Assembly: GCA_964577695.1 (NCBI GenBank)
Contig: CAZOAL010000003.1
Span: forward strand, 163,486-227,485
Length of the DNA: 64,000 nucleotides
Reading direction: 5' to 3'
DNA from: an uncultured bacterium
GTDB taxonomy: Bacteria > Poribacteria > WGA-4E > PCPOR2b
The notes beneath the pieces were generated by a model. It had not been told where the DNA came from, made no database searches, and worked only from the letters and a program-made list of their open reading frames with translations. The first letter of the stretch is position 1; every line of letters starts with the position of its first letter. Below, piece by piece: positions 1-62,720 of the stretch. A program made the translations under genes and the position numbers.

Positions 1-789
1 GGCATTGATCGGCGCGACACGGTCTACTGCCCTTTTCGGGATGTGGAAGAGGTTCTCTCGTTTGACGCCGTTGAGGAGTACGGTTTGCCCAGTGAAGATG
101 AGCTAATCTCGTATTACGAGCGGGTTTATCAAAACAGTCAGAGGAATCATCCGAAACAGATTTATACCGGCGGGTATTACAAGACCATCGTTTCTGGGCT
201 GATACAGACCTTCGGCTGGGACATGCTGCTTGAGGCAGCCGCTGACCGTCGGCGATTTGATCGGGTGATTGAAAGCTTCTTTCGACTTTCCCTTCATCAT
301 TACCGCGCTTGGGCAAAGACCTCCGTCGAAATCTTTATCTGCCATGACGATATGGTGTGGACGCAGGGACCGTTCATGCACCCTGATTTTTATAGGGCAT
401 CCATCTTTCCACGTTACCGCAAGCTGTGGGAAGTCCTTCACGAGGCGGGCAAAACCATCCTGTACTGCTCGGACGGGACGTGGACGGAGTTCGTGGATGA
501 CATCGCGCGTGCCGGGGCGGATGGATTTATCTTTGAGCCAACGACGTCGCTGGATTACGTCGTCGAGCGGTACGGCAAAACGCATGCGATACTCGGTAGC
601 AAGGTGGATTGTCGAACGCTGACCTTCAGCACACGGGAGGCGATTCGTTCGGAGATAGACGCCACACTCGCCCTGGCGAAGGATTGCCCGGGATTCATGT
701 TCGCTGTTGGCAATCACATCCCCAGCAATGTACCGGTTGAAAATGCCCTATTCTATTTCGATTATCTTAGGGAACACTGGAATCGTTAA
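1..789 (+). CDS. uroporphyrinogen decarboxylase (URO-D/MtaA-like) family protein, 5'-partial (frame open to window edge)
   Basis: ORF 43..789; frame has no stop back to nt 1; C-terminal URO-D-like motifs (FAVGNHIPSNVPVENALFYFDYL). Confidence 0.5.
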   Translation, partial: GIDRRDTVYCPFRDVEEVLSFDAVEEYGLPSEDELISYYERVYQNSQRNHPKQIYTGGYYKTIVSGLIQTFGWDMLLEAAADRRRFDRVIESFFRLSLHHYRAWAKTSVEIFICHDDMVWTQGPFMHPDFYRASIFPRYRKLWEVLHEAGKTILYCSDGTWTEFVDDIARAGADGFIFEPTTSLDYVVERYGKTHAILGSKVDCRTLTFSTREAIRSEIDATLALAKDCPGFMFAVGNHIPSNVPVENALFYFDYLREHWNR

Positions 790-4574: not shown

Positions 4575-4662
4575 TTGACACTTTGGACTCAGGACTCAGG
4601 ATTCAGGATTCAACTACATCTTGCATCTTGCATCTTGCATCTTGCATCTTGTATCTTGTATC
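4575..4662. repeat. tandem heptamers (GGACTCA/GGATTCA)x4 followed by (CTTGCAT)x4(CTTGTAT)x2
   Basis: read directly at 4581-4608 and 4616-4660; lies inside the 5' part of track ORF 4535..6394 but upstream of the likely true start. Confidence 0.85.
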
Positions 4663-4663
4663 A

Positions 4664-6394
4664 ATGAAGTGGCAACAGTTTTCTGAAACATGCCGCTTGC
4701 TCGCCCTCATTCTCACTTTGTGCCTTATGCTCGCTCTGAACTGTTTACATGCCGAGAGCGAACTCCCAATCCCAGTCCAGTTCACAGATGTCACCGCACA
4801 AGCTGGGATACACTTCCGGCATGCGGATGGGCGTAGTGGCCGGAGGTATTTTGTGGAGACAATCGGTTCGGGATGCGCTTTCGTTGATTTTGATAACGAT
4901 GGCGCGCCTGATATCTATCTGGTCAATGCAGCAGATTTGCCGGGATTCCACTCCGAGACCCCGCCGATAAACGCCCTCTACCGAAACAACGGGGATGGGA
5001 CGTTTACTGATGTCACCGACCACGCCGGGGTCGGTCATCCGGGCTACGGCACTGGCGTCACAGCGGCGGATTATAACAATGATGGGTTCGTTGACCTCTA
5101 CGTCACAAATTTTGGGGCCAATGTGCTCTACCGCAACAATGGCGATGGCACCTTCGCTGACGTGACAGACCAGGCAGGAGTGGGGGACCCCCGGTGGAGT
5201 GCGGGTGCCGCTTTTGCCGACTACGATAACGATGGCTTCTTAGACCTCTATGTGACCAACTATTGTGATTTTCGCTTCGATGAACACCGGACTTGTCATG
5301 AACAAGGCGTTGAGGTATACTGTGGTCCTGAGGAATTCTCTGGGGTCCCCGATACGCTGTATCATAACAATGGGGATGGCACCTTTACTGATGTCACTCG
5401 TGAAGCGGGCGTGTATAACCCCAAGGGCAAAGGGATGGGCGTCATCTGGGCAGACTATGATAATGATGGGGATTTGGACATTTTTGTGGCAAACGATACG
5501 ACAGAGAATTTTCTTTATCAAAATAATGGCGATGGCACATTCACTGATGTCGCCTGGATGGCGGGCGTTGAAAGCGATGAACGTGGCACTCCGCAGGGAA
5601 GCATGGGAGTGGACTTTGGTGATTATGATAACGATGGATGGCTCGATCTCGTGGTAACCAATTTTCAACGCCAGCTTAATGCAATCTATCATAATGATGG
5701 GAACGGAGGCTTTACCGATGTCTCCTTTATCGTTGGATTTGGATACAGCCTGCCTTATGTGAGTTGGGGTACAGGTTTCTTTGACTTCAACAACGATGGC
5801 TGGCGGGATGTGTTTATCGCCAACGGCCATATTCAGGATGAGATCGAACGCTACGACAAAAGCACCACCTATCTCCAGCCGAATCAACTGTTACTCAATA
5901 ATAGGCAGGGACGCTTCATCGATGTGTCAGCAACAGCGGGTTCAGGCTTGCAGATACACAAGGCAAGTCGAGGCGTCGCCTTTGGGGATTACGACAATGA
6001 TGGGGACATCGATATTCTCATCAGCAACGCAAACGACACGCCCGATCTGTTGCGTAACGATACGCCCCACACCGGTCACTGGATTCTGATTCAAACGATA
6101 GGGACCAAAAGTAATCGAGATGGCATTGGCGCGAGGATTCAAGTGCGGACAGGCAATCACTCAGGGCAGGTCCGCTTTGCGGACTCCCGGAACGGAGCTC
6201 TGACGCAAATTGCGGAAGTCCGTAGCGGTTCAAGCTATATGTCCCAGAACGACAGGCGCGTCCATTTCGGTTTGGGAACGGCCAAAGTGATAGAGCGTCT
6301 TGAGATACGCTGGCCAAGCGGAGTCGTGGATGTGATGGAGAATGTGCCTGTGGATAGACTACTTTATGTAACGGAGGGGGAACACGGAAATTGA
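4664..6394 (+). CDS. secreted ASPIC/UnbV-type FG-GAP (integrin alpha-like) repeat protein, CRTAC1 family
   Basis: signal peptide MKWQQFSETCRLLALILTLCLMLALNCLHA; repeated NNGDGTFTDVT...DYDNDG FG-GAP units; C-terminal UnbV/ASPIC-like region; start moved to ATG 4664 downstream of the repeat tract. Confidence 0.75.
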   Translation: MKWQQFSETCRLLALILTLCLMLALNCLHAESELPIPVQFTDVTAQAGIHFRHADGRSGRRYFVETIGSGCAFVDFDNDGAPDIYLVNAADLPGFHSETPPINALYRNNGDGTFTDVTDHAGVGHPGYGTGVTAADYNNDGFVDLYVTNFGANVLYRNNGDGTFADVTDQAGVGDPRWSAGAAFADYDNDGFLDLYVTNYCDFRFDEHRTCHEQGVEVYCGPEEFSGVPDTLYHNNGDGTFTDVTREAGVYNPKGKGMGVIWADYDNDGDLDIFVANDTTENFLYQNNGDGTFTDVAWMAGVESDERGTPQGSMGVDFGDYDNDGWLDLVVTNFQRQLNAIYHNDGNGGFTDVSFIVGFGYSLPYVSWGTGFFDFNNDGWRDVFIANGHIQDEIERYDKSTTYLQPNQLLLNNRQGRFIDVSATAGSGLQIHKASRGVAFGDYDNDGDIDILISNANDTPDLLRNDTPHTGHWILIQTIGTKSNRDGIGARIQVRTGNHSGQVRFADSRNGALTQIAEVRSGSSYMSQNDRRVHFGLGTAKVIERLEIRWPSGVVDVMENVPVDRLLYVTEGEHGN

Positions 6395-7869: not shown

Positions 7870-8200
7870 GCAAATGTGCAAATGGAAGGAGAGGAAGAAA
7901 AGGAAGGATGGAAGGAAGGAAGGATGGAAGAAGGGAAGGATGGAGGGATGGAAGAATGGAAGATTGGAAGGATGGAAGATTGGAAGGATGGAAGGATGGA
8001 AGGATGGGAAGGATGGAAGATTGGAAGGATGGAGGGATGGAAGGATGGAAGATTGGAAGGATGGAAGAATGGAAGGATGGAAGGATGGGAAGGATGGAAG
8101 ATTGGAAGGATGGAGGGATGGAAGGATGGAAGGATGGAAAGGAAGAAGTTTTTCACGTTTCGCGTTTCACGTTTCACGTTTCACGTTTTACGCCATAAGC
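7866..8200. repeat. about 290-bp degenerate GGAAGGAT/GGATGGAA tandem tract followed by (GTTTCAC/GTTTCGC)x5
   Basis: read directly; the four overlapping track ORFs here encode WKDGRMEG / HPSILPSF low-complexity repeats and are repeat artefacts. Confidence 0.9.
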
Positions 8201-9689: not shown

Positions 9690-9905
9690 AACCCCCTTAG
9701 AACCATACATCAAAATCCGAAATCCCAGATCCTTCCGAAGGTTTCAAACCTACGACTTTTTCAGTTATGGGCAAAAGTGAGGCCCAGACTTCCGAAGTTT
9801 CCACAGATGAGTTGAGCGGAGACGATGCAAAACCATGAAAAACCGATTCATCAAAAATCTGGTCTCAAACTTCGGAAGTCTAAGTGAAAAACTCGTATCA
9901 AACCT
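9690..9905. repeat. MITE-like palindromic element, family A (TIR ...cgactttttcagttatgggcaaaagtga...; internal gacttccgaagttt / aaacttcggaagtct)
   Basis: near-identical copies at 21835-21995 and 53105-53300; a partial hairpin at 19060-19100. Confidence 0.8.
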
Positions 9906-10071
9906 TCGGAAGGTTTCGCACAAAGGTGGGGTCGTTATTTCCGCCGATGCGTACTACCTTTTTACCAAAATGCAGATTTTTATTTACATGGGGCGGAAAA
10001 ATTGGTAAGATTTAATACCTTGCTTCCGCCGTTGGTTGCGGAAGCCAACAAATTTGATGGAGGAATTTTTC

Positions 10072-11043
10072 ATGAGTGGAGATGTGTTGCGTTTTGGAGT
10101 CGTTGGTTTAGGAATGGGGATGTCCCGTTCCAATACGATCGCCACCACGGAAGGTGCCCAACTGGTTGCCGTTGCAGACCTCGTTGAGGGGCGACGCAAA
10201 GCGGCCGCGGAGAAGTTGGGTTGTGATACTTACGACGATGCGATCAAGATGTTTGAACGTGACGAGCTAGACGTCGCAATGATCATGACGCCGAGCGGTT
10301 TGCATGCAAAACTCGGTATTGAGGCTGCCAAGCGCGGCAAGCATGTGATTACCACGAAGCCGATGGACGTGAATCTGGATAACTGCGATGCGCTGATTCG
10401 TGCCTGTGAGGAAAATCATGTAAAACTGCTGGTGGACTTTGGCGAACGTTATGGCGAGTGGAATCGTAAGATTCGTGCGGCGCTGGAGATGGGAGCGCTT
10501 GGAAAACCCATCCTGTGCGAACTGCGCATGAAGTGGTTCCGTGCTGACAGCTATTATGAGGGGTGGCACGGCACCTGGGAGCTCGATGGCGGCGGTTCTG
10601 TGATGAACCAGGGCGTGCATTATATCGATCTCGTGCAGTGGTTCATGGGGCCCGTTGCGCGTGTGCTGGGCGCTCATTACGGTGTGTATGCACATGAGCA
10701 TTGTGAAACGGAAGACCTCACCTCGGCGATTATCGAGTTCAAGAGCGGCGCAATTGGCACTGTGTTGACGACCACGACCTTCCCCGGCGACAGTGTCTCG
10801 ATGGTCCAGATTCACGGCGAGAAAGGGGTAATCGGCATCGACCCCCATGTATGGCAGTTTAAGGAGGGAGAACCAGAAATTAATCTACCCCCTTATCCGA
10901 AGAACGTGATTCAGGACGCCATCCGGGTCATTCGAGATGGAGCGCAACCGGCGGTGGATGGCTACGAGGGCAAGAAGTCCGTCGCGCTCAACCTGGCAAT
11001 CTACGAATCCGCTCGCAAAGGCCAACCGGTTGTGCCCGGTTAA
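10072..11043 (+). CDS. Gfo/Idh/MocA family NAD(P)-dependent oxidoreductase
   Basis: MSGDVLRFGVVGLGMG Rossmann N-terminus; RBS ggagg at 10058. Confidence 0.8.
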   Translation: MSGDVLRFGVVGLGMGMSRSNTIATTEGAQLVAVADLVEGRRKAAAEKLGCDTYDDAIKMFERDELDVAMIMTPSGLHAKLGIEAAKRGKHVITTKPMDVNLDNCDALIRACEENHVKLLVDFGERYGEWNRKIRAALEMGALGKPILCELRMKWFRADSYYEGWHGTWELDGGGSVMNQGVHYIDLVQWFMGPVARVLGAHYGVYAHEHCETEDLTSAIIEFKSGAIGTVLTTTTFPGDSVSMVQIHGEKGVIGIDPHVWQFKEGEPEINLPPYPKNVIQDAIRVIRDGAQPAVDGYEGKKSVALNLAIYESARKGQPVVPG

Positions 11044-11049
11044 AAAAGG

Positions 11050-11200
11050 AGTGGTCATCATTCAGAGTACACCTGTAGTCTAGTACCCTGTCACACAAGA
11101 TTTGACCAGTTCGTAGTGGCGACTTCAGTCGCTCTTTTGAACGTTACTACGAAAAGCCAACTTATTGCAAATTAATTTGACAAGGGGCTAGACTACGACT
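11050..11200. repeat. palindromic repeat element, family C (gtagtctagtaccctg ... cgtagtggcgacttcagtcgc ... ggggctagactacgac)
   Basis: reverse-complement copy of the core at 54660-54682 (gcgactgaagtcgccactacg), with the flanking gggggctaaactacgat palindrome at 54725-54770. Confidence 0.65.
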
Positions 11201-11234
11201 GGATTGACCGATAATTATGAGGAGGGAAAATAGG

Positions 11235-12017
11235 ATGGTCTTGACATCAGATTCGATTCATCATTATCGCGAACAGGGATATTTGGTCGTTGAAGATTTG
11301 TTCGCACCTGACGAGTGTGAGGAGATTAATCGCTATGCAGCGGATGTGGTGATGGGGAGGATACCGCTTCCGGAGCGAACCGGAATCTGGATGGAGCCTG
11401 CTGCGGAGGAGATGGGATTGGTGAAGGCGGACAACCGGTACGACTATCTGTTTAAGATCGGCCATCAGATGCACATAGCCGATCCGGTTTTTCAGCGCTA
11501 TGCTGTGCATCCACGGCTGGCGGACGTACTTGAAGGGCTCATCGGGCCGGACGTCAAGTGCGTGCAGAGTATGTACATCGACAAGCCCCGTGGAATCGGA
11601 ATTGGGCAGCCGTACCATCAGGACGCCTGGTATCTGAAAACTGACCCCGATACACTGATGGCAGTCTGGATTGCCTGCGATGATGCGGATTTAGACAACG
11701 GCTGCCTGCATGTCGTCCCCGGCAGTCAGAACGACCCCATCCATACCCACGAGAAGCCGATTGACCCCGACCAGCGCATCTATGCCGAGGTGCATAGCGC
11801 ACGCTCACGCCCAGAGGTCGCTGTGCCGCTCAAGACAGGCAGTGCCGTGTTCTTCGGTGGGCATGTACTGCACCGGTCGGGCAACAACTGCTCGAATCGG
11901 AAGCGGCGATGTTATGTCCTCCACTATGCCGACGCGAAGTCGAAATGGCTCAATGATCCGAAGGCAAAGAATCCGTTTTTGCTGGTGAGAGGGAAAGAAT
12001 ATCCGGGGTGTCTGTAA
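11235..12017 (+). CDS. phytanoyl-CoA dioxygenase (PhyH) family Fe(II)/2OG oxygenase
   Basis: HQDAWY ... HVVPGSQ ... HYA motif spacing typical of PhyH; RBS gaggaggg before ATG 11235. Confidence 0.8.
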   Translation: MVLTSDSIHHYREQGYLVVEDLFAPDECEEINRYAADVVMGRIPLPERTGIWMEPAAEEMGLVKADNRYDYLFKIGHQMHIADPVFQRYAVHPRLADVLEGLIGPDVKCVQSMYIDKPRGIGIGQPYHQDAWYLKTDPDTLMAVWIACDDADLDNGCLHVVPGSQNDPIHTHEKPIDPDQRIYAEVHSARSRPEVAVPLKTGSAVFFGGHVLHRSGNNCSNRKRRCYVLHYADAKSKWLNDPKAKNPFLLVRGKEYPGCL

Positions 12018-12073
12018 CTCATTGTCAATCATCATCTTGACCATTACAATTTCAGCAAAGAAGGCAGATTACG

Positions 12074-12436
12074 ATGACAGACGAGATGATTACAACGCTT
12101 TCCTTCGATGAACTTCCCCCTGATGATGAATCGGCGTGGGAGCAGTTTGATCGCTTAACCGATGCAGAATGTGAAGAGAGACAAGATAGAGACAATCCGC
12201 CGTTGACAGCGGAACAGCGAAAACAATTCAGGCGGGCTTATTTCGTCAAAGGGGAAATGGTCTGGAAAGATGACAAAACGATTGGGGAATTGTTGAAAGA
12301 GAAGGGAGAGGCCCCGACAATCATTCCTGTGGATTCGGACATTGCCGAATGGTTCAAAGCACAAGGGCAAGACTTTAAAGCCCTCATGAATGCAGCACTC
12401 AGAGATTATGTCTCCGCTCACCAAAACGCCCGTTGA
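12074..12436 (+). CDS. BrnA-like (DUF4415) antitoxin-family protein, with no adjacent toxin gene
   Basis: C-terminal IPVDSDIAEWFKAQGQDFKALMNAALRDYVSAHQ resembles BrnA-family antitoxins. Confidence 0.5.
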   Translation: MTDEMITTLSFDELPPDDESAWEQFDRLTDAECEERQDRDNPPLTAEQRKQFRRAYFVKGEMVWKDDKTIGELLKEKGEAPTIIPVDSDIAEWFKAQGQDFKALMNAALRDYVSAHQNAR

Positions 12437-12452
12437 TTGAAAGGGAATCCTG

Positions 12453-15400
12453 ATGCAACAACTTTCCTTGAAACCCACGCACAAGCCTGTCAGGGCATAT
12501 TATGACGCCTTAGCTCGATTTCACGCCATCGGTGTTGCGCATGAAACCGCCGTGCGCTCTGCCTTTTTTAGCCTGCTCGAATCCTGCGGGCGTCAGTTTG
12601 ATTGGACGCTGGTCCCAGAGTGGCCGATGAAACGAGGCAAGAACCAACGGATTATTGTGGACGGTGCGCTCGTGGATGCGTATCACTTGACGCACGGCTT
12701 CTGGGAAGCGAAGGATAGTCAAGATGACCTGGAACGGGAAATCGACAAGAAGTTTTCTACTGGCTACCCCAGAGATAATATCCTGTTTCAGGCACCTGAA
12801 CGGGCAATCCTCTGGCAGAATGACCGACAGGTTCTGGATGCCGATCTCACCCAAGTCGATCAGTTAATCGAAACGCTCACAGCCCTCTTGGAGTATCGCC
12901 CCCCTGATTATGTCGAATGGGAGAAAGCGGTTGCGGAGTTCAAAGACCGCGTTCCTGACTTGGCAACAGGGCTTGTGAGACTCATCGAAAAGGAACGGCA
13001 AACCAACACGCGCTTTCTCTCAGCCTTCACTGTTTTCACCGAGAAGTGTCGTCAATCGATAAACCCTAACATCTCCTCAGCGGCGGTCGAGGAGATGTTG
13101 ATTCAGCACTTGCTCACCGAACGCATCTTCCGCACGGTCTTTCACAACCCGGATTTCAGGGATAAAAATGTCATCGCTTGCGAAATCGAAACGGTGATTC
13201 GAGCTTTGACTTCCCAATCCTTCAGCAGAGATCAATTCCTCAAGAACCTCGATCGGTTCTATGTCGCGATTGAACGAACCGCCGCCACGATTGACGACTT
13301 CTCTCACAAACAGCATTTCCTCAACACGGTCTACGAACAATTCTTTCAAGGCTACTCCGTCAAGGTCGCTGACACACACGGCATCGTCTACACCCCACAG
13401 CCGATTGTCACGTTCATGGTCAAGAGTGTGGAGGACATCTTGCAAAAAGAGTTTGGCAGGTCGCTTTCTGATAGGGACGTGCATATCATCGATCCGTTCG
13501 TGGGAACGGGTAACTTCATCGTGCACGTCATGCAGGAGATCAGGAAAACCGCGCTCCCTCACAAATATGCCCATGAACTCCACTGTAACGAGGTGATGCT
13601 CCTGCCCTACTACATCGCTTCGATGAACATCGAACACGAATACTTTGAAGCAACGGGACACTATCAGCCCTTTGAAGGCATCTGCTTGGTGGATACGTTT
13701 GATCTGGCAGAGGAACGGCAACTCCCGCTGTTTGTTGAGGAAAACACGGCGCGGGTGGAAAAGCAGAAGCGGACGCCGATGTTTGTGATTATCGGGAATC
13801 CGCCGTACAATACGACACAGGTGAATGAGAATGATAATAACAAGAATCGGAAGTATGAAACGATAGATAAGCGCGTGTCGGAAACATACGCAAAAGATTC
13901 AAAGGCTACTAATGTCAATAAGCTGAGTGATCCCTACGTCAAAGCGATTCGTTGGGCATCAGATCGGATCGGTGAGGAAGGTATCGTCGCATTCGTGACG
14001 AACAATAGTTTTATGGATCAAATTGCCTTTGATGGGATGCGTCAACACTTAGCAAAAGATTTTGATGTGATTTATGTCCTCGACTTGAGCGGCAATGTCA
14101 GGAAGAATCCGAAGCTATCAGGCACCACGCATAACGTGTTTGGCATTCAGGTAGGCGTCAGTATTAACCTTTTCATCAGAAAAAGTCAGGCACCCAAAAA
14201 CGCCGCACAGATCCATTACGCACGGGTGGATGAGTTTTGGCGAAAAGAGGAGAAGTATCGGTATCTGGACGAAAAGCAACACAGAGGCACTATTGATTGG
14301 CAATCTATCCAGCCAGATAAGAAAAAGGCGTGGCTGACGGAAGGTCTACACGATGAGTTTGAAACGCTCATATCCATGGGGAATAAGGCATCGAAATCTG
14401 CGAGGGGAGAGGCTGTCGATGCGATCTTCAAGGTTTACAGTCTCGGCGTTGTTACCAACCGCGATACTTGGGCGTACAACTTCAACCGAGATACCCTCAT
14501 CGGAAACATCAAACGAACCATCGCAACCTACAACGAGCAGGTCTTAAAGTGGATTCACCGATCGAATAAAGATGCGAACGTGGATGACTTTGTGCTGTAT
14601 GACGATAGCAGACTGAGCTGGAGCAGAGACTTAAAAGCGGATCTCAACAGAGGACGGCTGGCGGAATTTTCGGAGGAAAAGGTGAGGCAATCCCTCTACC
14701 GCCCGTTTACTCGCACCACTCTGTTCTTTGATCGAATCTTGAACCAGGATGTTTTTGTCTTTCCTTCCATTTACCCCATGCCTGAAACAGAAGCGGAGAA
14801 TCGGGTGATTTGCCTAAGCGCAGTTGGAAATAACAAGGCATTTCATTGTTTAGTGGTAAATATCATACCAGATTTACACTTGACTGGTGATTCTCAATCC
14901 TTCCCCTTCTACACCTACAACGAGGACGGCACGAACCGCCGCGAAAACATTACCGACTGGTCACTCGCTCAATTCCGCAATCACTATGCCCAATCCGCAA
15001 TCCGCAATCCGCAATCCGCAATCGAAAAATGGGATATATTCCACTACGTCTATGCTGTGCTGCATCACCCCGATTATCGTGAACGGTATCAAGCCAACCT
15101 GAAGCGAGAATTGCCCCGCATTCCCTTTGCGCCCGATTTCTGGGCGTTTGCCAGTGCAGGGGAACGCTTGGCAGAGATTCACGTCCACTATGAGGAGCAG
15201 CCCGAATATCCGCTGAAAATGGTTGAGACTCCCAATCAGCGGCTCGATTGGCGTGTCGAGAAGATGCGGCTTTCCAAAGACAAGACGCAACTTCGCTACA
15301 ACGATTTCTTGACGCTGGACGGGGTTCCATCGGAAGCGTTTGACTATCGGCTCGGCAATCGCTCGGCGTTGGATTGGGTGATAGACCAGTATCAGGTCAA

Positions 15401-15554
15401 GACCGACTCACGAAGCGGTATCGTCAATGACCCCAATCGACAGGATGACCCCGAATACATTGTCCGTTTGATTGGACAGGTGATCACCGTGAGTCTGGAA
15501 ACGGTGAAGATTGTGAAGGCTTTGCCAGAGCTGGGGATACCATCGGAAGGGTAA
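12453..15554 (+). CDS. single-polypeptide Type IIL/IIG restriction-modification enzyme (MmeI-like): N-terminal PD-ExK nuclease, gamma-class N6-adenine methyltransferase, C-terminal target-recognition domain
   Basis: PD-ExK signature in IVDGALVDAYHLTHGFWEAKD; methyltransferase motif IV VIIGNPPYN; 1033 aa. Confidence 0.75.
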   Translation: MQQLSLKPTHKPVRAYYDALARFHAIGVAHETAVRSAFFSLLESCGRQFDWTLVPEWPMKRGKNQRIIVDGALVDAYHLTHGFWEAKDSQDDLEREIDKKFSTGYPRDNILFQAPERAILWQNDRQVLDADLTQVDQLIETLTALLEYRPPDYVEWEKAVAEFKDRVPDLATGLVRLIEKERQTNTRFLSAFTVFTEKCRQSINPNISSAAVEEMLIQHLLTERIFRTVFHNPDFRDKNVIACEIETVIRALTSQSFSRDQFLKNLDRFYVAIERTAATIDDFSHKQHFLNTVYEQFFQGYSVKVADTHGIVYTPQPIVTFMVKSVEDILQKEFGRSLSDRDVHIIDPFVGTGNFIVHVMQEIRKTALPHKYAHELHCNEVMLLPYYIASMNIEHEYFEATGHYQPFEGICLVDTFDLAEERQLPLFVEENTARVEKQKRTPMFVIIGNPPYNTTQVNENDNNKNRKYETIDKRVSETYAKDSKATNVNKLSDPYVKAIRWASDRIGEEGIVAFVTNNSFMDQIAFDGMRQHLAKDFDVIYVLDLSGNVRKNPKLSGTTHNVFGIQVGVSINLFIRKSQAPKNAAQIHYARVDEFWRKEEKYRYLDEKQHRGTIDWQSIQPDKKKAWLTEGLHDEFETLISMGNKASKSARGEAVDAIFKVYSLGVVTNRDTWAYNFNRDTLIGNIKRTIATYNEQVLKWIHRSNKDANVDDFVLYDDSRLSWSRDLKADLNRGRLAEFSEEKVRQSLYRPFTRTTLFFDRILNQDVFVFPSIYPMPETEAENRVICLSAVGNNKAFHCLVVNIIPDLHLTGDSQSFPFYTYNEDGTNRRENITDWSLAQFRNHYAQSAIRNPQSAIEKWDIFHYVYAVLHHPDYRERYQANLKRELPRIPFAPDFWAFASAGERLAEIHVHYEEQPEYPLKMVETPNQRLDWRVEKMRLSKDKTQLRYNDFLTLDGVPSEAFDYRLGNRSALDWVIDQYQVKTDSRSGIVNDPNRQDDPEYIVRLIGQVITVSLETVKIVKALPELGIPSEG
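14988..15022 (+). repeat. (CAATCCG)x~4.7 heptamer tandem repeat inside the RM coding sequence
   Basis: cccaatccgcaatccgcaatccgcaatccgcaatcg, encoding QSAIRNPQSAIRNPQSAIE; the 7-bp unit is not a multiple of 3. Confidence 0.9.
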
Positions 15555-15628
15555 GAAAGCAGAGCGGGCAAAACCATCAGACGAACAGCTTGAACTGCTC
15601 TGATAGATTGGATAGAAAGGAAAAAAAG

Positions 15629-15904
15629 ATGAAAACCATTGCCATTGAACAGGCAAAATTAAAGATAAAAGAATCACTTGCATCAAACGACACCCTAATC
15701 GACCAGCGCGAATTAGCGAAAATGCTAGGCATCAATATAAAAGCCGTGGCGCGCGCGTATCACGAGCTGGTCGAGGAAGGCATTGTTCACGAAGAAACCT
15801 ACTTTCTTTGGAAAAACCCGGTCATGCGTCAGCGTCTTTTTGAAGCGATGCAAAGCCAAGAATATATTCCATTTGAGGTGGTTCGTGAAAGACTTGGTAT
15901 TTAA
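15629..15904 (+). CDS. Phd/YefM-position antitoxin
   Basis: MKTIAIEQAKLKIKE N-terminus; immediately upstream of and overlapping the YoeB gene; RBS aaagg at 15615. Confidence 0.6.
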   Translation: MKTIAIEQAKLKIKESLASNDTLIDQRELAKMLGINIKAVARAYHELVEEGIVHEETYFLWKNPVMRQRLFEAMQSQEYIPFEVVRERLGI

Positions 15905-16145
15905 GCCACAAGCGCTTCAAGATTTAGAATGGTGGATTAAGCAAAATCGAAAAGTGGCATTACGAATTTTGTCTCTGTTGCGAGAAATTCAGCAAACCCC
16001 CTTTCATGGCAGAGGTAAGCCTGAGCTTCTGAGGCACCAATATGCCGGTTGCTGGTCCAGACGTATCGATCAAGTCAATCGTATTGTTTATCAGGTTGAA
16101 ACGGATAAAATTATTGTTCATGCCTGCAAAGGTCACTACCAATGA
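15885..16145 (+). CDS. yoeB: YoeB/Txe-family type II toxin (ribosome-dependent mRNA interferase)
   Basis: ...REIQQTPFHGRGKPELLRHQYAGCWSRRIDQVNRIVYQVETDKIIVHACKGHY matches YoeB along its length; GTG start at 15885, 20-nt overlap with the antitoxin. Confidence 0.8.
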   Translation: MKDLVFKPQALQDLEWWIKQNRKVALRILSLLREIQQTPFHGRGKPELLRHQYAGCWSRRIDQVNRIVYQVETDKIIVHACKGHYQ

Positions 16146-16320
16146 AAACCGCCGCCATTTATGCCCGCGACTCACCTGGGCGTGACCGAGACCAGACCTC
16201 CACCATCGATGAAGCGCACATCGACATAGACCGTGCCATCTAGCAGATTTCACCAGAAATAGACAGTCATCGGAGATTTACAATACGGAACAGGAGTCAC
16301 ACGCAGAAGGGAGACAACAG

Positions 16321-16941
16321 ATGCGAGATTTGATCATTCTGGGACTCGGGGCGCACGGCCCGGAGATGGCGGAAATGGTGGAGGCGGTCAACCGCGTAAA
16401 AGAGACATGGCACCTGCGTGGCTTCATCTCCCCGGATGGACATCAGGTTGGGGAGTCTGTCAACGGTTACCCCGTCCTTGGCACGATGGAGGTGTTAAAG
16501 GATTACCCAGATGCTGATGTGGTGCCTCACAACGAGGGGACCGAGCGCCTGAACGTCCCCCGCCATCGGCTAGTGTCACTCATCCATCCCAGCGCCGTTG
16601 TGTCCCGCACGGCGCACATTGGCGTTGGCTGTGTCATTTATCCGCACTGTTACGTCGGTCTCAATGCACGGATAAATGATTTCGTCTTTTGCCTGAGTGG
16701 GTGTATCATCAATCACGATGATGTCATCGAAGAGCGGGTAATCTTCGCGAGTGGGGTCACGCTGGCGGGCGTCGTGCATGTGGAGTCCGACTGCTACCTG
16801 GGTCAGGGGTGTCAGGTCAGGCAACACTTGAGAATCGGTCGGAACAGCCTGATTGGTATGGGCGCGGTGGTGGTCACGGATGTTCCACCGAACAGCGTCA
16901 TGGTCGGCAATCCGGCTCGGAAACTGAGAGAGCGGGGATGA
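16321..16941 (+). CDS. PglD/NeuD-family sugar O-acyltransferase (left-handed beta-helix, hexapeptide repeats)
   Basis: Rossmann-like N-terminus MRDLIILGLGAHG followed by hexapeptide repeats (IGVGCVIYPHCYVGLNARIND...). Confidence 0.7.
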   Translation: MRDLIILGLGAHGPEMAEMVEAVNRVKETWHLRGFISPDGHQVGESVNGYPVLGTMEVLKDYPDADVVPHNEGTERLNVPRHRLVSLIHPSAVVSRTAHIGVGCVIYPHCYVGLNARINDFVFCLSGCIINHDDVIEERVIFASGVTLAGVVHVESDCYLGQGCQVRQHLRIGRNSLIGMGAVVVTDVPPNSVMVGNPARKLRERG

Positions 16942-17254
16942 GCGGACGCCGCGACTGGCTCGGCGTGGATTGACACATCCACGCCACGACTGCCGCTGGA
17001 TTTGTCAATCCAGCGAGAGCAGGAAAAATGTTAGCTACTGAAGTCATCGGACATAATTATTTGAGGCTTGGTCATAATTACCGGCAGATCCCGTTTGGCT
17101 ATGACTTTGCCGTGGGAGCAACCTCCCGGTCGCGAGGCGATGAATCGAGTCCGGCAGGACTCTCCCACAGAATTATGACCAACCCTCAATTATTTTGATA
17201 TTCGCCCCCATTCTGGATGCTTGAGACACTGCTTCCCCGACAAATTAAAAATTG

Positions 17255-17300
17255 AAGATTGAAGATTGAAACATCCGCAATCGACAATTGACAATCGACA
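17255..17300. repeat. tandem heptamers (GATTGAA)x3 then CAATCGACA/ATTGACA units
   Basis: aattgaagattgaagattgaaacatccgcaatcgacaattgacaatcgacaaagg. Confidence 0.8.
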
Positions 17301-17313
17301 AAGGAGATTTTAC

Positions 17314-18084
17314 TTGTCTGAACAACCGATTATCGAGGTCCATCGTCTGACCAAACATTTTGGCGACGTGACGGCGGTCAATGCCCTTTCCTTCACGGTG
17401 GATAAGGGGGAGATTCTAGGGCTACTTGGCCCCAACGGTGCCGGGAAGACCACGACGATTCAGATGCTTCTCGGCTTGACGACGCCCACGTCAGGGGACA
17501 TCCGTATTTTTGGACTCAATGTGCGGAAGCATCGTCTTGCGATTCTACAACGTGTCAACTTTTCCTCCGCTTATGTCTCCCTGCCCAGCAACCTGACAGG
17601 GCGGGAAAACCTGACCGTCTTTGCGCGACTTTACGGCATCCGTAAACCACAGCAGAAAATCGATGCGTTGTTAAATCTATTCGAGATTCCGCAAGCCCGC
17701 GACCGCGTGTCGGGTGCGCTCTCGTCGGGGCAGTTGACCCGCCTGAATCTCTGCAAAGCGTTCTTGAATGACCCGGAGGTGCTGTTCCTTGACGAGCCAA
17801 CCGCCAGCCTCGACCCGGACATCGCCGATAAGGTCCGCTCAACCTTGCGTCAGATTCAGCGGGAACGCGGCGTGACCATACTCTATACCTCCCACAACAT
17901 GCGGGAAATCGAACTGATGTGTGACCGGGTGATTTTTCTCTCGCGTGGAAATATCGTCGCCGAGGGCACCCCCAAAGAAATTCTCGAACGCGCCCGGACA
18001 CAGTCGTTAGAAGAGGTGTTTATCTCAATTGCACGAGATGGGGAACTGAAAGACCTATCAGCAAGAAAAGTGGAGGACAACTGA
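17314..18084 (+). CDS. ABC transporter ATP-binding protein
   Basis: Walker A GPNGAGKTT, signature LSSGQ, Walker B LFLDEP; TTG start 7 nt after RBS aaggag. Confidence 0.85.
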   Translation: MSEQPIIEVHRLTKHFGDVTAVNALSFTVDKGEILGLLGPNGAGKTTTIQMLLGLTTPTSGDIRIFGLNVRKHRLAILQRVNFSSAYVSLPSNLTGRENLTVFARLYGIRKPQQKIDALLNLFEIPQARDRVSGALSSGQLTRLNLCKAFLNDPEVLFLDEPTASLDPDIADKVRSTLRQIQRERGVTILYTSHNMREIELMCDRVIFLSRGNIVAEGTPKEILERARTQSLEEVFISIARDGELKDLSARKVEDN

Positions 18085-18863
18085 TGTGGATGCGAGTGAG
18101 CGGCTTAATTTTGCGCCATCTTTATCTCTATCGGCGGAGTTTGGCACGAGCGGGTGAAATCTTCTTCTGGCCCGTCATGGATCTCCTCGTCTGGGGGTTC
18201 GTCACCGCCTATATGGAACGGCTGAACGTCACGGCCCTTTTCTTGCTCGGTTCGCTGATTTTCTGGGACATTCTCTACCGCTCCCAACAGGCGATTACCT
18301 TTTCTATCACAGAGGAGATCTGGGTCAAAAACATCCTCAACATCTTCATCGCTCCTGTCAGCATTTATGAACTGATGCTTTCGACCTGCCTGCTCGGCGT
18401 GATTAAGGCACTCATTACCGCCGTTGTGTTGGGAGGGCTTGCCTATCTCCTCTACGCCTTCAACCTGTTGGCTGTCGGTATGGCAATCCTCCCCTTTATG
18501 GTCAGCCTTCTTCTGTTTGGCTGGGCGGTCGGGATGGTCACAACAGCGCTCATCCTCCGTTTGGGGCAGGCAGCAGAAGCCCTGGTCTGGGGAGTCCCCT
18601 TCCTGATACAACCCTTCTCGGCGGTCTTTTACCCGGTGGATGTGCTTCCGAAAGTGTTACAGGTGATCGCACACGGTTTGCCCTCAACGTACATCTTTGA
18701 AGGGATGCGAACAGCCCTGCGAACGGGTAGTGTGGATGTTTCCATGCTTATGACAGCGTTTGCCCTCAACGTCGTATACCTGGCTGCCGGTGCAACATTT
18801 TTTGGATGGATGTTCCAGCAGGTGCGGAAAAAAGGCTATCTGAGCCGACTGGGAATGGAATGA
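18084..18863 (+). CDS. ABC-2 type transporter permease
   Basis: six TM segments; ATGA overlap with the ATPase gene. Confidence 0.8.
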   Translation: MWMRVSGLILRHLYLYRRSLARAGEIFFWPVMDLLVWGFVTAYMERLNVTALFLLGSLIFWDILYRSQQAITFSITEEIWVKNILNIFIAPVSIYELMLSTCLLGVIKALITAVVLGGLAYLLYAFNLLAVGMAILPFMVSLLLFGWAVGMVTTALILRLGQAAEALVWGVPFLIQPFSAVFYPVDVLPKVLQVIAHGLPSTYIFEGMRTALRTGSVDVSMLMTAFALNVVYLAAGATFFGWMFQQVRKKGYLSRLGME

Positions 18864-19138
18864 TGAGCGGAAAGGGGAATGTTTTAGAAACCTCTTTACA
18901 CGCTTTGGGGTTGGAAGATTGGAAGAATGGAAGGATGGGTGGCAGGGCTTCATCTTCCATTCGTGCAGGTTTCCTGCTCTCATATCAAGTGCAAACTCAT
19001 TTTTTCAGGAATTTGAAACATGCCACTATTAGTCAACCAAATTTAATCTGAGGGATAGACTTCCGAAGTTTCCGAAACTTCGGAAGTCTGCGAGTCCATC
19101 AATTTAAATTTGGTGAAGCACTCTAAGGAGAAAAAATA

Positions 19139-27844: not shown

Positions 27845-27880
27845 CAGGCGTGAAACGTGAAACGTGAAACGTGAAATGTG
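27845..27880. repeat. (GTGAAAC)x3-4 heptamer repeat
   Basis: gtgaaacgtgaaacgtgaaacgtgaaatgtgagg. Confidence 0.85.
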
Positions 27881-27912
27881 AGGATTTGAACCCATGAACT
27901 GATGAACACCCT

Positions 27913-30805: not shown

Positions 30806-30900
30806 CATGAAACGTATTGCGTATTGCGTATTGCGTACTGCGTATTGCGTGAGTCGTGATACCTGAACCTAACACCTAACACCTAACACCTGACACCTAA
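30806..30900. repeat. (GCGTATT)x5 followed by (CACCTAA)x5 heptamer tracts
   Basis: cgtattgcgtattgcgtattgcgtactgcgtattgcg ... cctaacacctaacacctaacacctgacacctaac. Confidence 0.9.
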
Positions 30901-30916
30901 CGAACGAGGAATAAAA

Positions 30917-32167
30917 ATGATCGAATTTGATAAACTCATAGTGCCCGGAGTCGGCGAAAGAATTGGTAGAGAAAACGGTCGATTGGTTTTTCCCAATCGT
31001 CCGATTATTCCTGTGATTGAGGGCGATGGCATTGGCAGAGACATCATGCGTGCCACTCGCCGGGTGATCGATGCCGCCGTTGAAACCGCCTACGGTGGAG
31101 CCAAACGAATCGCGTGGTTTGATATTTATGCCGGCGAGAAAGCCAACGAAATGTATGGGGAATGGTTGCCCCAGGACACCTTCAAAGCCATTCAGTATTT
31201 TCGGGTTGCCCTGAAGGGGCCCTTGACAACGCCTGTCGGCGGCGGATTTCGTAGCTTAAATGTGACCCTCCGTCAAGAACTAGACCTGTATGCGTGCGTT
31301 CGCCCGGTGCGCCATTTTCAAGGGGTGCCTTCCCCCGTGACGCACCCGGAAAAAATGGATGTCGTCATTTTCCGGGAAAATACCGAAGACGTTTATGCAG
31401 GAATCGAATGGGCGCAGGGAACGCCGGAAGCGAAGAAAGTGATTGAATTTCTCCGCACGCAGATGGGAGCGGACATCCGTGAAGACTCAGGGATCGGTAT
31501 TAAGCCGATCAGCATTTTCGGGACGAAGCGCCTGGTGCGAATGGCGCTCCAATACGCCATCGATCATCACCGCCGGAGTGTCACGCTCGTTCACAAGGGC
31601 AACATTATGAAATTCACGGAAGGTGCTTTCCGTGATTGGGGCTATGAAGTTGCGAAGGAAGAATTCGGGGGTCAGACGGTCACAGAAGATGCGGTTTATA
31701 GCCAATACAATGGGAGAATCCCTGAAGGAAAGATTGTTATTAAAGATCGGATCGCGGATAGCATGTTACAGCAGATCTTGACACGAACGGACGACTACGA
31801 CGTCATTGCAACACCTAACCTGAACGGTGACTACCTCTCCGATGCCTGCGCCGCGCAGGTGGGTGGAATCGGGATGGCACCGGGTGGCAACATCGGTGAT
31901 GAACAGGCGCTGTTTGAAGCCACCCATGGGACTGCGCCCAAGTACACCGATCAAGACGTGTCCAATCCCAGTTCACTCATCCTTTCGGCGGTGATGATGC
32001 TCGAACACATCGGTTGGCAGGGTGCCGCAGATCTCGTGACTCAGGGGCTTGGGCAGGCAATTCTACAAAAGCGTGTGACTTATGACCTCGAACGTTTGAT
32101 GGAAGGCGCGACGAAACTTCACACCTCGGAGTTTGGAACCGCAATTATTGAGAATTTTAAATCATAA
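30917..32167 (+). CDS. icd: NADP-dependent isocitrate dehydrogenase
   Basis: collinear with E. coli Icd from the N-terminus ([15 protein letters not shown]...). Confidence 0.85.
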
Positions 32168-32226
32168 TGCGTAATACGTAATGCGTAAAAATCCTACTTA
32201 TTACGCATTACGTATTACGTATTACG
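32166..32226. terminator. heptamer-built hairpin (aatgcgtaatacgtaatgcgtaa / ttacgcattacgtattacgtattacgcatt) after icd
   Basis: perfect inverted heptamer arrays directly after the stop. Confidence 0.55.
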
Positions 32227-32242
32227 CATTCAGGAGAAACAA

Positions 32243-50892: not shown

Positions 50893-50992
50893 TGTGTGAA
50901 ACGTGAAACGTGAAGAGGAACATGCAAACACCTAACACCTAACACCTAATACCTAACACCTTCCACGCATCACGTTTCACGACTTAAAAGGA
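50893..50992. repeat. heptamer hairpin element: (GTGAAAC)x3 ... (CACCTAA)x4 ... CGTTTCACG
   Basis: read directly. Confidence 0.85.
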
Positions 50993-62096: not shown

Positions 62097-62621
62097 TTAG
62101 GTGATGTCGGGGCCAATCGCCTCGCGCACCGCCGCCACCACGTCAACGATATCCTCATCCTTCTCCTGCAAGCGGTTATGCGAATAGGGCCCCTTGATAC
62201 ACACCTCCGCCTTAATCGCGCTGAACCCAAATCCCACCGCATCCTTTGCCTTCGCTACGAGGCTTTCCCTGTACTCCGCCAACGTGTTGCCCGCCGGGAG
62301 AAGGCTGGCATACGGGGTCAGCTCGGGCTGTTTAGCGCCTCCCAATAGCTTCCAGATCGGTTTCCCCTCGGCTTTTCCGCGAATATCCCACAGTGCCATA
62401 TCAAGCGCACCCATGGCACAGATACCAAGCCCTCGCCGTCCGTTCATCGCAGAGCCGATGTACAGTTTTTCCCACAACGCCTCCACCTGTAGTGGGTCTT
62501 GACCGATGAGCATCTCCTTAAGCCCCAAGCCCATGCAGTGCGTTCCGGGTGCCTCGATCAACGCCTTTACCGCCCAGGGATTGGTGTCTGTTTCACCGAT
62601 ACCGACGAGCCCTTCGGTCAA
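62097..62621 (-). pseudogene. internal fragment of an enolase-superfamily (MR/MLE) dehydratase gene
   Basis: aligns to residues ~40-210 of the 20683..21810 protein (GIGET...ALWDIRGK...LLGG); it lacks the N-terminal about 40 aa and the whole C-terminal barrel; 5' side abuts the heptamer tract. Confidence 0.6.
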
Positions 62622-62720
62622 TTGTCAATTGTCAATTGTCAATTGTCAATTGTCGATTGTCAATTGTCGATTGTCGATCCCCTCCTTCCCTTCCTTCCCT
62701 TCCTTCCCTTTCTTCCTCTT
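62610..62720. repeat. (CAATTGT)x4(CGATTGT) tract followed by (CCTTCCCTT)n
   Basis: read directly. Confidence 0.9.

What the first reader, a model, noticed from the sequence alone, without database searches (positions are those of the whole stretch)
14988..15022. Out-of-frame heptamer repeat inside the RM gene: candidate phase-variation switch
(CAATCCG)x~4.7 lies inside the coding sequence of the Type IIL enzyme, in its C-terminal target-recognition region. It is the same repeat class that litters the intergenic space. Gain or loss of one 7-bp unit shifts the frame and would truncate the enzyme before its C-terminal domain. This is the classic mechanism of phase-variable RM systems, but heptamer units are not the usual tetra/pentanucleotide tracts.
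Basis: partly seen in the sequence, partly recalled or inferred. Interest (0 to 1): 0.7.

Follow-up and report, generated by a model that had tools for sequence, protein, structure and literature searches.

The report
Seven-base repeat inside a restriction enzyme gene
A perfect 33-base run of a 7-base unit really does sit inside an intact DrdV-like (Type IIL) restriction-modification gene and could switch it off by slipping, but the evidence favours a tolerated in-frame insertion in a flexible protein loop over a proven on/off switch.

Summary
The repeat is real: (CAATCCG)x4.7, perfect, at 14991-15023, inside a 1033-aa ORF (12453-15554) that matches the solved Type IIL enzyme DrdV over its full length. 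One or two units more or fewer give a stop within about 40 codons and remove the last 150-175 residues of the target-recognition domain.

Three results weaken the "switch" reading.
- The tract is exactly +21 nt (+7 aa, three units) compared with all 120 nearest homologues, including a 91% relative. It encodes a loop between two helices.
- That loop is an insertion hotspot across the family. 20 of 161 homologous loci carry 15-153 nt there instead of the standard 18 nt: decayed CAATCNN heptamer arrays or small palindromic inserts. All are in frame.
- The window has 9 perfect heptamer arrays in 64 kb (none expected). All the others are non-coding. This tract is short compared with known heptamer switches (8-38 units).

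No allele with another unit number was found. However, k=31 assemblies of run SRR6155503 break inside this array, and a clonal 4.7-unit allele should not cause that. This hints at read-level heterogeneity, but not the simple plus/minus one unit pattern.

Verdict: a frameshift-prone repeat of a known kind. Phase variation is plausible but unproven.

The parts
14991..15023 (+). Perfect heptanucleotide tandem array (CAATCCG)x4.7, in frame; encodes QSAIRNPQSAI
   Evidence: TRF, 100% matches; sequence; not expected by chance
12453..15554 (+). Intact 1033-aa DrdV-like Type IIL restriction-modification gene (nuclease, helical connector, N6-adenine methyltransferase, TRD)
   Evidence: ORF; Pfam; PADLOC REase_MTase_IIG, full length; DrdV 7lo5, E 2e-207
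12660..12713 (+). Putative PD-(D/E)xK nuclease motif: D70 ... E85-A86-K87
   Evidence: E85, A86, K87 and D88 are invariant in both homologue alignments; D70 is invariant in the 92-sequence set and at least 90% conserved in the 30-sequence set; aligned with the DrdV N-terminal domain. The catalytic role is inferred.
13311..14087 (+). Methyltransferase core (Pfam N6_Mtase 287-475, Eco57I 445-545), with DPFVGTGNF and NPPY motifs
14421..15470 (+). Target-recognition domain (Pfam Type_ISP_C, aa 657-1006)
   Evidence: E 3e-101; predicted fold matches the TRDs of LlaGI, DrdV and LlaBIII, E about 1e-17
14988..15026 (+). Codons 846-858: the loop between helices 835-844 and 859-871. It is 39 nt here and 18 nt in 141 of 161 homologous loci, and is the family's insertion hotspot.
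   Evidence: AlphaFold TRD model, pLDDT 77-87 in this stretch; gap between DrdV S842 and I843; length survey
14968..14982 (+). Upstream near-copy of the repeat, CAATTCCGCAATCAC (codons Q-F-R-N-H); significance unknown
   Evidence: Read directly from the sequence
12074..12436 (+). BrnA-like antitoxin gene 17 nt upstream of the RM gene (context only)
   Evidence: Pfam PF14384
15590..16145 (+). HTH protein plus YoeB-family toxin directly downstream (context only)
   Evidence: Pfam and NCBIfam; gene calls on Logan contig L162

Best explanation
The tract is a product of the same 7-base slippage/amplification process that has filled this genome's non-coding DNA with heptamer arrays. Here it arose inside codons 846-858 of an intact DrdV-like Type IIL gene. 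It survived because the net change is three units (+21 nt, +7 aa). It also falls in a helix-to-helix connection of the target-recognition domain that tolerates insertions throughout the family. The present allele is 'on': the frame is open and the catalytic motifs are present. As a perfect repeat the tract can still slip. Any change that is not a multiple of three units gives a protein of 871-887 aa lacking the C-terminal third of the TRD. That should abolish restriction and methylation together, and further slippage could reverse it. Such switching is most likely an infrequent side effect of the tract, not a selected high-frequency switch. Shown: the anatomy, the +21 nt relation to homologues, the insertion hotspot, and the frameshift consequences. 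Inferred: origin by slippage, loop tolerance, loss of function in truncated forms, and a low switching rate.
For: (1) All 120 nearest homologues (69-91% identity) are exactly 7 aa shorter at this site. The 91% relative reads CAGGATGAGACCATCGGC there, with near-identical flanks. (2) Removing 3 units restores the family-standard length, HYAQSAIEKWD. (3) The site lies between DrdV S842 and I843 and is loop or short helix in the TRD model, pLDDT 77-87. The DrdV base-contact residues D803 and K807 lie about 35 residues upstream. (4) 20 of 161 homologous loci have 15-153 nt there instead of 18, all in frame. They carry decayed CAATCNN heptamer arrays (L046, L074, L120, L064/L135, L073) or palindromic inserts (L034, L059, L069, L072, L122, L159, L160), spread over at least three clades. 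(5) Heptamer arrays are a genome-wide feature: 9 perfect arrays against 0 expected. Every other array checked is non-coding, usually just 5' of a start codon. (6) Array sizes across the window (3-8 units) bracket this one. (7) Short tracts switch rarely: about 1e-6 for 3 tetranucleotide units (PMC7383803). Known heptanucleotide switch tracts have 8-38 units. (8) Three assemblies agree with the window without a single gap over about 26 kb, including at least 10 other arrays.
Against: RM genes are classic targets of repeat-mediated switching. The tract is perfect, which suggests recent activity. Logan k=31 contigs break on both sides inside this array (L163 ends at 15019, L162 starts at 14998). 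A unitig model that reproduces another Logan break exactly (62646) predicts no break for a clonal 4.7-unit allele, so some sequence heterogeneity at the array probably exists in the reads. The JGI assembly of the same community lacks this part of the gene. Heptamer arrays of the same phase recur at this exact site in distant relatives, which could also be read as selection for a repeat there. The tract removes a 90%-conserved Asp (D854 column), so the insertion may not be neutral.
Confidence: 0.55

Rival explanations
1. It is a genuine contingency locus. The heptamer tract slips often enough that the population always holds cells with the Type IIL enzyme ON (4.7 units, or 3 more or fewer) and OFF (other numbers). 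This switches restriction and methylation together, as with Cj0031 in Campylobacter.
For: The unit length is not divisible by 3 and the tract is perfect. Changes of 1, 2 or 4 units truncate the TRD, and 3 units either way restore the frame. A fused R-M polypeptide makes OFF switching safe (PMC4889913). The tract passes the '3 or more units' criterion used in REBASE surveys (PMC7383803). Intragenic heptanucleotide tracts have been proposed as switches (PMC2651432). The k=31 assembly breaks inside the array, which a clonal allele does not explain.
Against: No variant allele was found in any collection. There are only 4.7 units. The break coordinates (15019/14998) do not match mixtures with one unit more or fewer (15016/14998 or 15020/14994). 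The only single variant that fits is an odd +22 nt duplication. No frameshifted allele occurs at this site in 161 homologous loci. The arrays at this site in relatives are decayed, so they persist as coding sequence and not as switches.
Confidence: 0.3
2. In-frame length variation (steps of 3 units, 7 aa) of this TRD loop tunes enzyme behaviour, such as assembly or cleavage geometry, and does not turn it on or off. This would be analogous to the repeat-number changes in Type I HsdS that alter the spacer recognised (EcoR124I/II; from my own knowledge, not checked here).
For: The observed allele differs from its relatives by exactly one 7-aa period. Loop length varies widely in the family, from -1 to +45 aa.
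Against: The loop is not among the DNA-contact residues named for DrdV. The insertions in relatives are heterogeneous (palindromic elements, decayed repeats) with no consistent length classes. Nothing ties loop length to specificity.
Confidence: 0.05
3. The unit count in the window is an assembly artefact. The true allele has another number of units, possibly out of frame, or the locus is a collapsed mixture.
For: No single independent contig spans the whole array. L163 supplies the left flank plus 4 units plus C, and L162 supplies 3 units plus the right flank. The k=31 graph is branched here.
Against: Both Logan contigs are 100% identical to the window, and their 22-nt overlap fits 4 full units. 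The resulting ORF is intact and collinear with 120 homologues apart from the 7-aa insertion. A pure longer allele predicts different break points, 15020/14994.
Confidence: 0.05

Closest known systems
[quoted passage not shown]
   Same: Single chain of about 1030 aa with an N-terminal nuclease, helical connector, N6-adenine methyltransferase and C-terminal TRD. Aligns over residues 27-1025 at E 2e-207.
   Different: DrdV has no repeat, and its loop between S842 and I843 is 7 residues shorter. The residues aligned with the DrdV specificity contacts (D803, K807) differ here (PDLHLTGDSQSF), so the target sequence is probably different (inference).
Cj0031 (CjeN...), phase-variable Type IIG enzyme of Campylobacter jejuni NCTC11168 (PMC4889913)
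   Same: A fused restriction-methylation polypeptide with a repeat about two thirds of the way along the gene (position 2573 of 3732 bp there; 2539 of 3102 bp here). Slippage splits the reading frame and is predicted to abolish both activities together. Only some alleles of the gene carry the tract.
   Different: Cj0031 uses a poly-G tract (G9/G10) with measured ON/OFF variants. It belongs to a different enzyme family (Eco57I/TaqI_C-type TRD). Here the unit is 7 nt, there are 4.7 copies, and no variants have been observed.
Heptanucleotide repeats of Haemophilus influenzae (hmw1A/hmw2A promoters; intragenic (AATTTTG)14 in hmw1A; (AACAACC)8-13 in an HI1369 homologue; PMC2651432)
   Same: 7-nt units whose gain or loss shifts the frame or alters expression. 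Unit numbers differ between strains.
   Different: Those tracts have 8-38 units and documented between-strain variation. They are in surface-protein genes, not RM genes.
Short tandemly repeated heptamers of cyanobacteria (STRR; GGGGA(C/T)T repeats in Nostoc, PMC4692102) and the TAACTGA repeats of Beggiatoaceae (PMC4679880)
   Same: Many short (about 4-6 unit) heptamer arrays of several sequence families, over-represented in non-coding DNA and often just upstream of start codons.
   Different: The host here is labelled Candidatus Poribacteria, and the cyanobacterial HIP1 palindrome is not enriched. The unit sequences differ. Other Poribacteria loci examined have no such arrays.

Membership tests
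DrdV-like Type IIL (Type IIG) restriction-modification enzyme | Single polypeptide with N-terminal PD-(D/E)xK nuclease, helical connector, gamma-class N6-adenine methyltransferase and C-terminal TRD | tested here: met
   Pfam ISP_coupler, N6_Mtase, Eco57I and Type_ISP_C; PADLOC REase_MTase_IIG PDLC03621, residues 13-1024 of 1024; full-length alignment to DrdV, E 2e-207; TRD fold match
DrdV-like Type IIL (Type IIG) restriction-modification enzyme | Catalytic motifs present (SAM-binding DPxxGxG, NPPY, nuclease D...ExK) | tested here: met
   DPFVGTGNF at 347-355, NPPY at 449-452, D70/E85/K87; conserved or invariant across homologues
DrdV-like Type IIL (Type IIG) restriction-modification enzyme | Methylates one strand of an asymmetric site and cuts at a fixed distance outside it | not testable with these tools
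   Needs biochemistry or methylome data
Repeat-mediated phase-variable (contingency) gene | Simple repeat within the ORF whose unit length is not a multiple of three | tested here: met
   7-nt unit, 4.7 perfect copies in codons 847-857
Repeat-mediated phase-variable (contingency) gene | Gain or loss of a unit gives a premature stop and a truncated product | tested here: met
   Simulated alleles: changes of 1, 2 or 4 units give 871-887 aa; 3 units fewer or more give 1026 or 1040 aa
Repeat-mediated phase-variable (contingency) gene | Tract length in the range shown to switch at high frequency | tested here: inconclusive
   Passes the permissive '3 or more units' survey criterion. The same source gives about 1e-6 for 3 tetranucleotide units and doubts tracts of 4 or fewer units. 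Known heptanucleotide tracts have 8-38 units.
Repeat-mediated phase-variable (contingency) gene | Unit number varies between cells, reads or closely related strains | tested here: inconclusive
   No variant in the metagenome pattern scan, related loci, fragment search or exact look-ups of products with 1 to 3 units more or fewer. The species is represented essentially once. The Logan k=31 break inside the array implies extra k-mers but not a one-unit pattern.
Repeat-mediated phase-variable (contingency) gene | Both in-frame and out-of-frame alleles seen among homologues carrying the tract | tested here: not met
   All 161 homologous loci are in frame across this site, including those with heptamer-derived inserts
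STRR-like heptanucleotide tandem repeats | Many tandem arrays of 7-nt units, in several sequence families, far above chance | tested here: met
   9 perfect arrays of 3 or more copies in 64 kb against 0 in 50 shuffles; about 17 arrays by TRF
STRR-like heptanucleotide tandem repeats | Predominantly in non-coding DNA | tested here: met
   All other arrays examined lie outside coding sequence, mostly just 5' of start codons. This one is the exception.
STRR-like heptanucleotide tandem repeats | Cyanobacterial (heterocystous) host, as originally defined | tested here: not met
   Cluster mates at 90% identity or more are named Candidatus Poribacteria bacterium; HIP1 occurs once against 1.85 expected

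The most novel reading that the evidence does not exclude
The helix-to-helix loop of the TRD in DrdV-like Type IIL enzymes is a recurrent, selected landing site for heptamer tracts. In this uncultured Poribacteria-like bacterium a freshly homogenised tract acts as a reversible ON/OFF switch of a defence enzyme, and possibly of genome-wide methylation. That would extend repeat-driven phase variation from host-adapted pathogens to environmental bacteria and to 7-nt units. The assembly break inside the array would be the footprint of coexisting alleles.
Probability: 0.15. Interest if true: 0.65.

Novelty: new member of a known kind. Interest (0 to 1): 0.4.

Why it matters
If the tract does switch, it would be a rare candidate for a phase-variable fused (Type IIL) restriction-modification enzyme outside host-adapted pathogens, driven by a 7-base unit. 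Defence and methylation in an uncultured environmental lineage would then be heterogeneous within a population. If it does not switch, the locus still shows how a genome-wide heptamer-amplifying process invades coding sequence. Only net multiples of 21 nt survive, and only in a permissive surface loop. That same loop has repeatedly absorbed heptamer arrays and small palindromic elements in distant relatives. This is useful for annotating this enzyme family and for engineering a DrdV-type TRD at an insertion-tolerant position.

Tried and rejected
- **Search for alleles with other unit numbers.**
  - An exact pattern for the left junction (CAYTAYGCCCAATCCGCAATC) found nothing in metagenome contigs.
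  - Related loci reached at most 70% identity in genome contigs and 77% in metagenome contigs.
  - A 144-aa query around the site, meant to catch short same-species fragments, gave at most 74% identity.
  - Exact look-ups of the predicted products with 1, 2 or 3 units more or fewer found nothing.
  - Look-ups of partial products expected at contig ends failed even for two known Logan partial genes, so that test was uninformative.
- **First whole-protein AlphaFold model.** It was too poor in the TRD (pLDDT about 30) and was replaced by a TRD-only model with a deeper alignment.
- **Cyanobacterial origin.** I suspected this from the heptamers and rejected it. HIP1 is not enriched and the cluster mates are labelled Poribacteria.
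- **Logan contig break explained by one-unit alleles or by a longer CAATCCG array elsewhere.** Rejected as the sole cause, because the predicted break points (15016/14998 and 15020/14994) differ from those observed (15019/14998).
- **Breaks at heptamer arrays as a generic Logan artefact.** Rejected. The same assembly runs through four arrays, and the one other break (62646) is fully explained by a self-repeating 31-mer in a 38-nt perfect array. The 33-nt RM array has no such repeat.
- **L064 and L135 as evidence for long-term stability of a 3.3-unit array.** Rejected, because the two genes are 99.6% identical around it.
- **Further Logan contigs near the CATCTTG array.** None are on record.
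Full report
**Observation.** The window reads ...CACTATGCC CAATCCG CAATCCG CAATCCG CAATCCG CAATC GAAAAATGG.... Tandem Repeats Finder gives 14991-15023, period 7, 4.7 copies, 100% matches. Two adjacent units occur nowhere else in the window, and 0.04 matches are expected from shuffles. The tract lies in frame in ORF 12453-15554 (+), 1033 aa. There it encodes QSAIRNPQSAI, one 7-aa period per three units.

**The gene.** Pfam finds ISP_coupler (163-282), N6_Mtase/Eco57I (287-545) and Type_ISP_C (657-1006, E 3e-101). PADLOC matches a full-length Type IIG restriction-methyltransferase model. The best solved relative is DrdV, a 1029-aa Type IIL enzyme (7lo5/7lvv), aligned over residues 27-1025 at E 2e-207. 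[quoted passage not shown]

The N-terminal 160 residues carry D70 and E85-A86-K87, which are conserved or invariant in the homologue alignments. The DPFVGTGNF and NPPY motifs are present.

The neighbours are a BrnA-like antitoxin, an HTH protein and a YoeB toxin. The whole block is set in a polysaccharide gene cluster.

**Consequences of slippage.** I built alleles with 4 fewer to 4 more units.
- A change of 1, 2 or 4 units gives a stop 25-40 codons later. The products are 871-887 aa and lack the last 150-175 residues of the TRD.
- Three units fewer give 1026 aa and three more give 1040 aa, both in frame.
- The allele with three fewer units reads HYAQSAIEKWD, which is exactly the length of the family standard.

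**Comparison with relatives.** All 120 best homologues (69-91% identity) are 7 aa shorter at this site (HYxDDxIxKWD). The closest lineage is a cluster of metagenome proteins at about 91% identity, with 89.7% DNA identity over 12700-15561. It reads CAC TAC CAG GAT GAG ACC ATC GGC AAA TGG with near-identical flanks, so the tract is specific to the window's lineage. The net difference is +21 nt, or three units.

**Where it sits in the protein.** In the DrdV alignment the extra residues fall between S842 and I843. DrdV's named TRD base contacts (D803, K807) lie about 35 residues upstream. A whole-protein AlphaFold model was unreliable in the TRD. A TRD-only model with 146 sequences (mean pLDDT 73) places helix 835-844, then loop or short helix 845-858, then helix 859-871, with pLDDT 77-87 there. 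Its fold matches the TRDs of LlaGI, DrdV and LlaBIII at E about 1e-17.

**The site is an insertion hotspot.** I located the two flanking segments by tblastn in 161 homologous loci from genome and metagenome collections. The stretch between them is 18 nt in 141 loci and 15-153 nt in 20, and always in frame. The non-standard inserts are of two kinds.
- Decayed heptamer arrays in the same phase as the window's tract:
  - L046: CAATCGT CAATCGA AAATCCA AAATCCA AAATCGA
  - L074: CAATCGT CAATCGA AAATCAA CAATCCC CAATCAC
  - L120: GAATCGG CCATCGG AAATCGT AAATCGG AAATCAC
  - L064/L135 and L073: CAATCTC(C) units
- Small palindromic inserts: L034, L059, L069, L072, L122, L159 and L160.

By pairwise identity these loci fall in at least three clades. 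The window's own neighbours (L001 92%, L082/L083 77%) have the standard length. More heptamer-like remnants appear among C-terminal fragments (P0121, P0164). The loop therefore tolerates insertions, and heptamer-derived inserts persist there as ordinary coding sequence.

**Genome context of the repeat class.** The window has 9 perfect heptamer arrays of 3 or more copies, against 0 in 50 shuffles. Heptamers dominate among unit lengths of 4 or more. TRF lists about 17 heptamer arrays of 3-8 units. Every other array I checked is non-coding and usually sits directly 5' of a start codon. Examples are 4585-4662 before the ATG at 4664 (which begins a signal peptide), and 17251-17301 before a Shine-Dalgarno sequence and TTG start.

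The organism is not a cyanobacterium. HIP1 is not enriched, and cluster mates of two window proteins are named Candidatus Poribacteria bacterium. Other Poribacteria loci (187 kb) have no such arrays, whereas filamentous cyanobacterial loci have 23 in 194 kb. The pattern resembles the cyanobacterial heptamer repeats and the TAACTGA repeats of Beggiatoaceae described in PMC4692102 and PMC4679880.

**Search for variation.** No contig in the JGI metagenome collection carries the left junction. No relative above 77% identity was found in the JGI metagenome or reference-genome contig scans, and none above 74% in the fragment search. The only closer sequences are the ~91% sister cluster already described. 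The predicted products of alleles with 1, 2 or 3 units more or fewer are not among about 15 billion proteins. Three assemblies of the same community agree with the window over about 26 kb with no gaps, including at least 10 other arrays: the NCBI contig, JGI 3300010391 and Logan SRR6155503. These are weak negatives, because the species is sampled essentially once.

**An unexplained hint of heterogeneity.** Two Logan (k=31) contigs end inside the array. L163 covers window 9870-15019 and L162 covers 14998-18918. Both are 100% identical to the window and overlap by 22 nt. L162 occurs in two samples. The same assembly passes through four other heptamer arrays.

A simple k=31 unitig model predicts the Logan break at the 38-nt GTCAATT array exactly (62646), so the model is adequate. 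For the RM array it gives these results:

| Population modelled | Predicted left end / right start |
|---|---|
| Clonal 4.7-unit allele | no break |
| Mixture with one unit fewer | 15016 / 14998 |
| Mixture with one unit more, or a longer array elsewhere | 15020 / 14994 |
| Observed | 15019 / 14998 |

I then scanned every substitution, and every deletion and tandem duplication up to 35 nt, within about 40 nt of the array. Only a 22-nt duplication reproduces both observed ends. That allele would be (CAATCCG)4-C-(CAATCCG)3-CAATC, which is out of frame. Extra k-mers that branch inside the array therefore probably exist in the reads, but their nature is unresolved.

**Comparison with known systems.** Cj0031 of C. 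jejuni is a fused Type IIG enzyme with a G9 tract at 2573 of 3732 bp. Its slippage splits the ORF and is predicted to abolish both activities, and only some alleles carry the tract (PMC4889913). Heptanucleotide tracts, including intragenic ones, have been proposed as switches in H. influenzae, with 8-38 units and between-strain variation (PMC2651432). REBASE-wide surveys accept 3 or more units as "potentially phase-variable". The same survey notes that tracts of 4 or fewer units without strain variation probably do not switch, and quotes about 1e-6 for three tetranucleotide units (PMC7383803).

**Conclusion.** The anatomy is fully explained by a genome-wide heptamer process leaving a three-unit, in-frame insertion in a permissive TRD loop.

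My estimates are:
- about 0.55 for a tolerated by-product that can only occasionally knock the gene out
- about 0.3 for a working phase switch
- about 0.05 for in-frame tuning of the enzyme
- about 0.05 for an assembly miscount

This is a new member of a known kind. Read-level counting in SRR6155503 and SRR6155504 would settle the question.

Noticed in passing
window 4585-4662, 8151-8192, 17251-17301, 27849-27881, 30813-30901, 32165-32230, 50896-50961, 62617-62675: Most heptamer arrays lie directly 5' of start codons, often as two different arrays side by side or as inverted pairs (TAATGCG/ATTACGC at 32165-32230). The unit CGTGAAA recurs at six places (814, 956, 8151, 26974, 27849, 50896). This resembles the TAACTGA repeats upstream of start codons in Beggiatoaceae and may be a regulatory or RNA-level feature.
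   Followed up: partly
window 7882-8139 and 842-946: Long purine-rich 8-mer arrays (ATGGAAGG x31.8; AAGGATGG x12.5). The second is flanked by inverted CGTGAAA heptamer arrays (814-843 and 956-983). Function unknown.
   Followed up: no
window 14998-15019 (Logan contigs L163 and L162): k=31 assemblies of SRR6155503 break on both sides inside the RM heptamer array, although a clonal 4.7-unit allele should not break. Only a +22 nt duplication variant reproduces both break points.
   Followed up: partly
window 62097-62675 (- strand): The ORF with an MR_MLE_N domain starts at profile position 36, right at the GTCAATT x8.4 array. Its 5' end may have been replaced or truncated by the array and the adjacent CCTTC-rich tract.
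   Followed up: no
L001 and proteins P0001, P0260-P0264: The 91% sister lineage lacks the first 72 residues. It starts MVKEEVKQLWEAKD and so has no D70 of the nuclease motif. It also carries a palindromic insert of about 24 nt in another TRD loop (PFAQDPSTSLRASFWAF against PFAPDFWAF here). Its flanks are unrelated to the window's.
   Followed up: partly
L064:6001-9126 versus L135:3001-6108: Two Chloroflexota-type genes are 99.6% identical at both ends but only about 45-65% identical over nt 1360-2454 (the C-terminal part of the methyltransferase and the N-terminal part of the TRD). This looks like a swapped specificity block.
   Followed up: partly
family-wide: The family is conserved at about 70% identity across Poribacteria, Caldilineaceae, Hormoscilla and other lineages. 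Some genomes hold several copies, including two close together on OZ241994.1. More than 100 C-terminal-only ORFs (215-250 aa) exist, some on megabase contigs, which may be split genes.
   Followed up: no
window 12074-12436 and 15590-16145: The RM gene is bracketed by toxin-antitoxin genes (a BrnA-like antitoxin, and an HTH protein plus YoeB) and sits inside a sugar/polysaccharide gene cluster, like a small inserted defence islet.
   Followed up: no
window 18912-18938: Logan contig L162 ends at 18918, exactly where a one-unit variant of the imperfect 8-mer array (TGGAAGAT TGGAAGAA TGGAAGGA) would diverge from the reference. This may be repeat heterogeneity there too.
   Followed up: no
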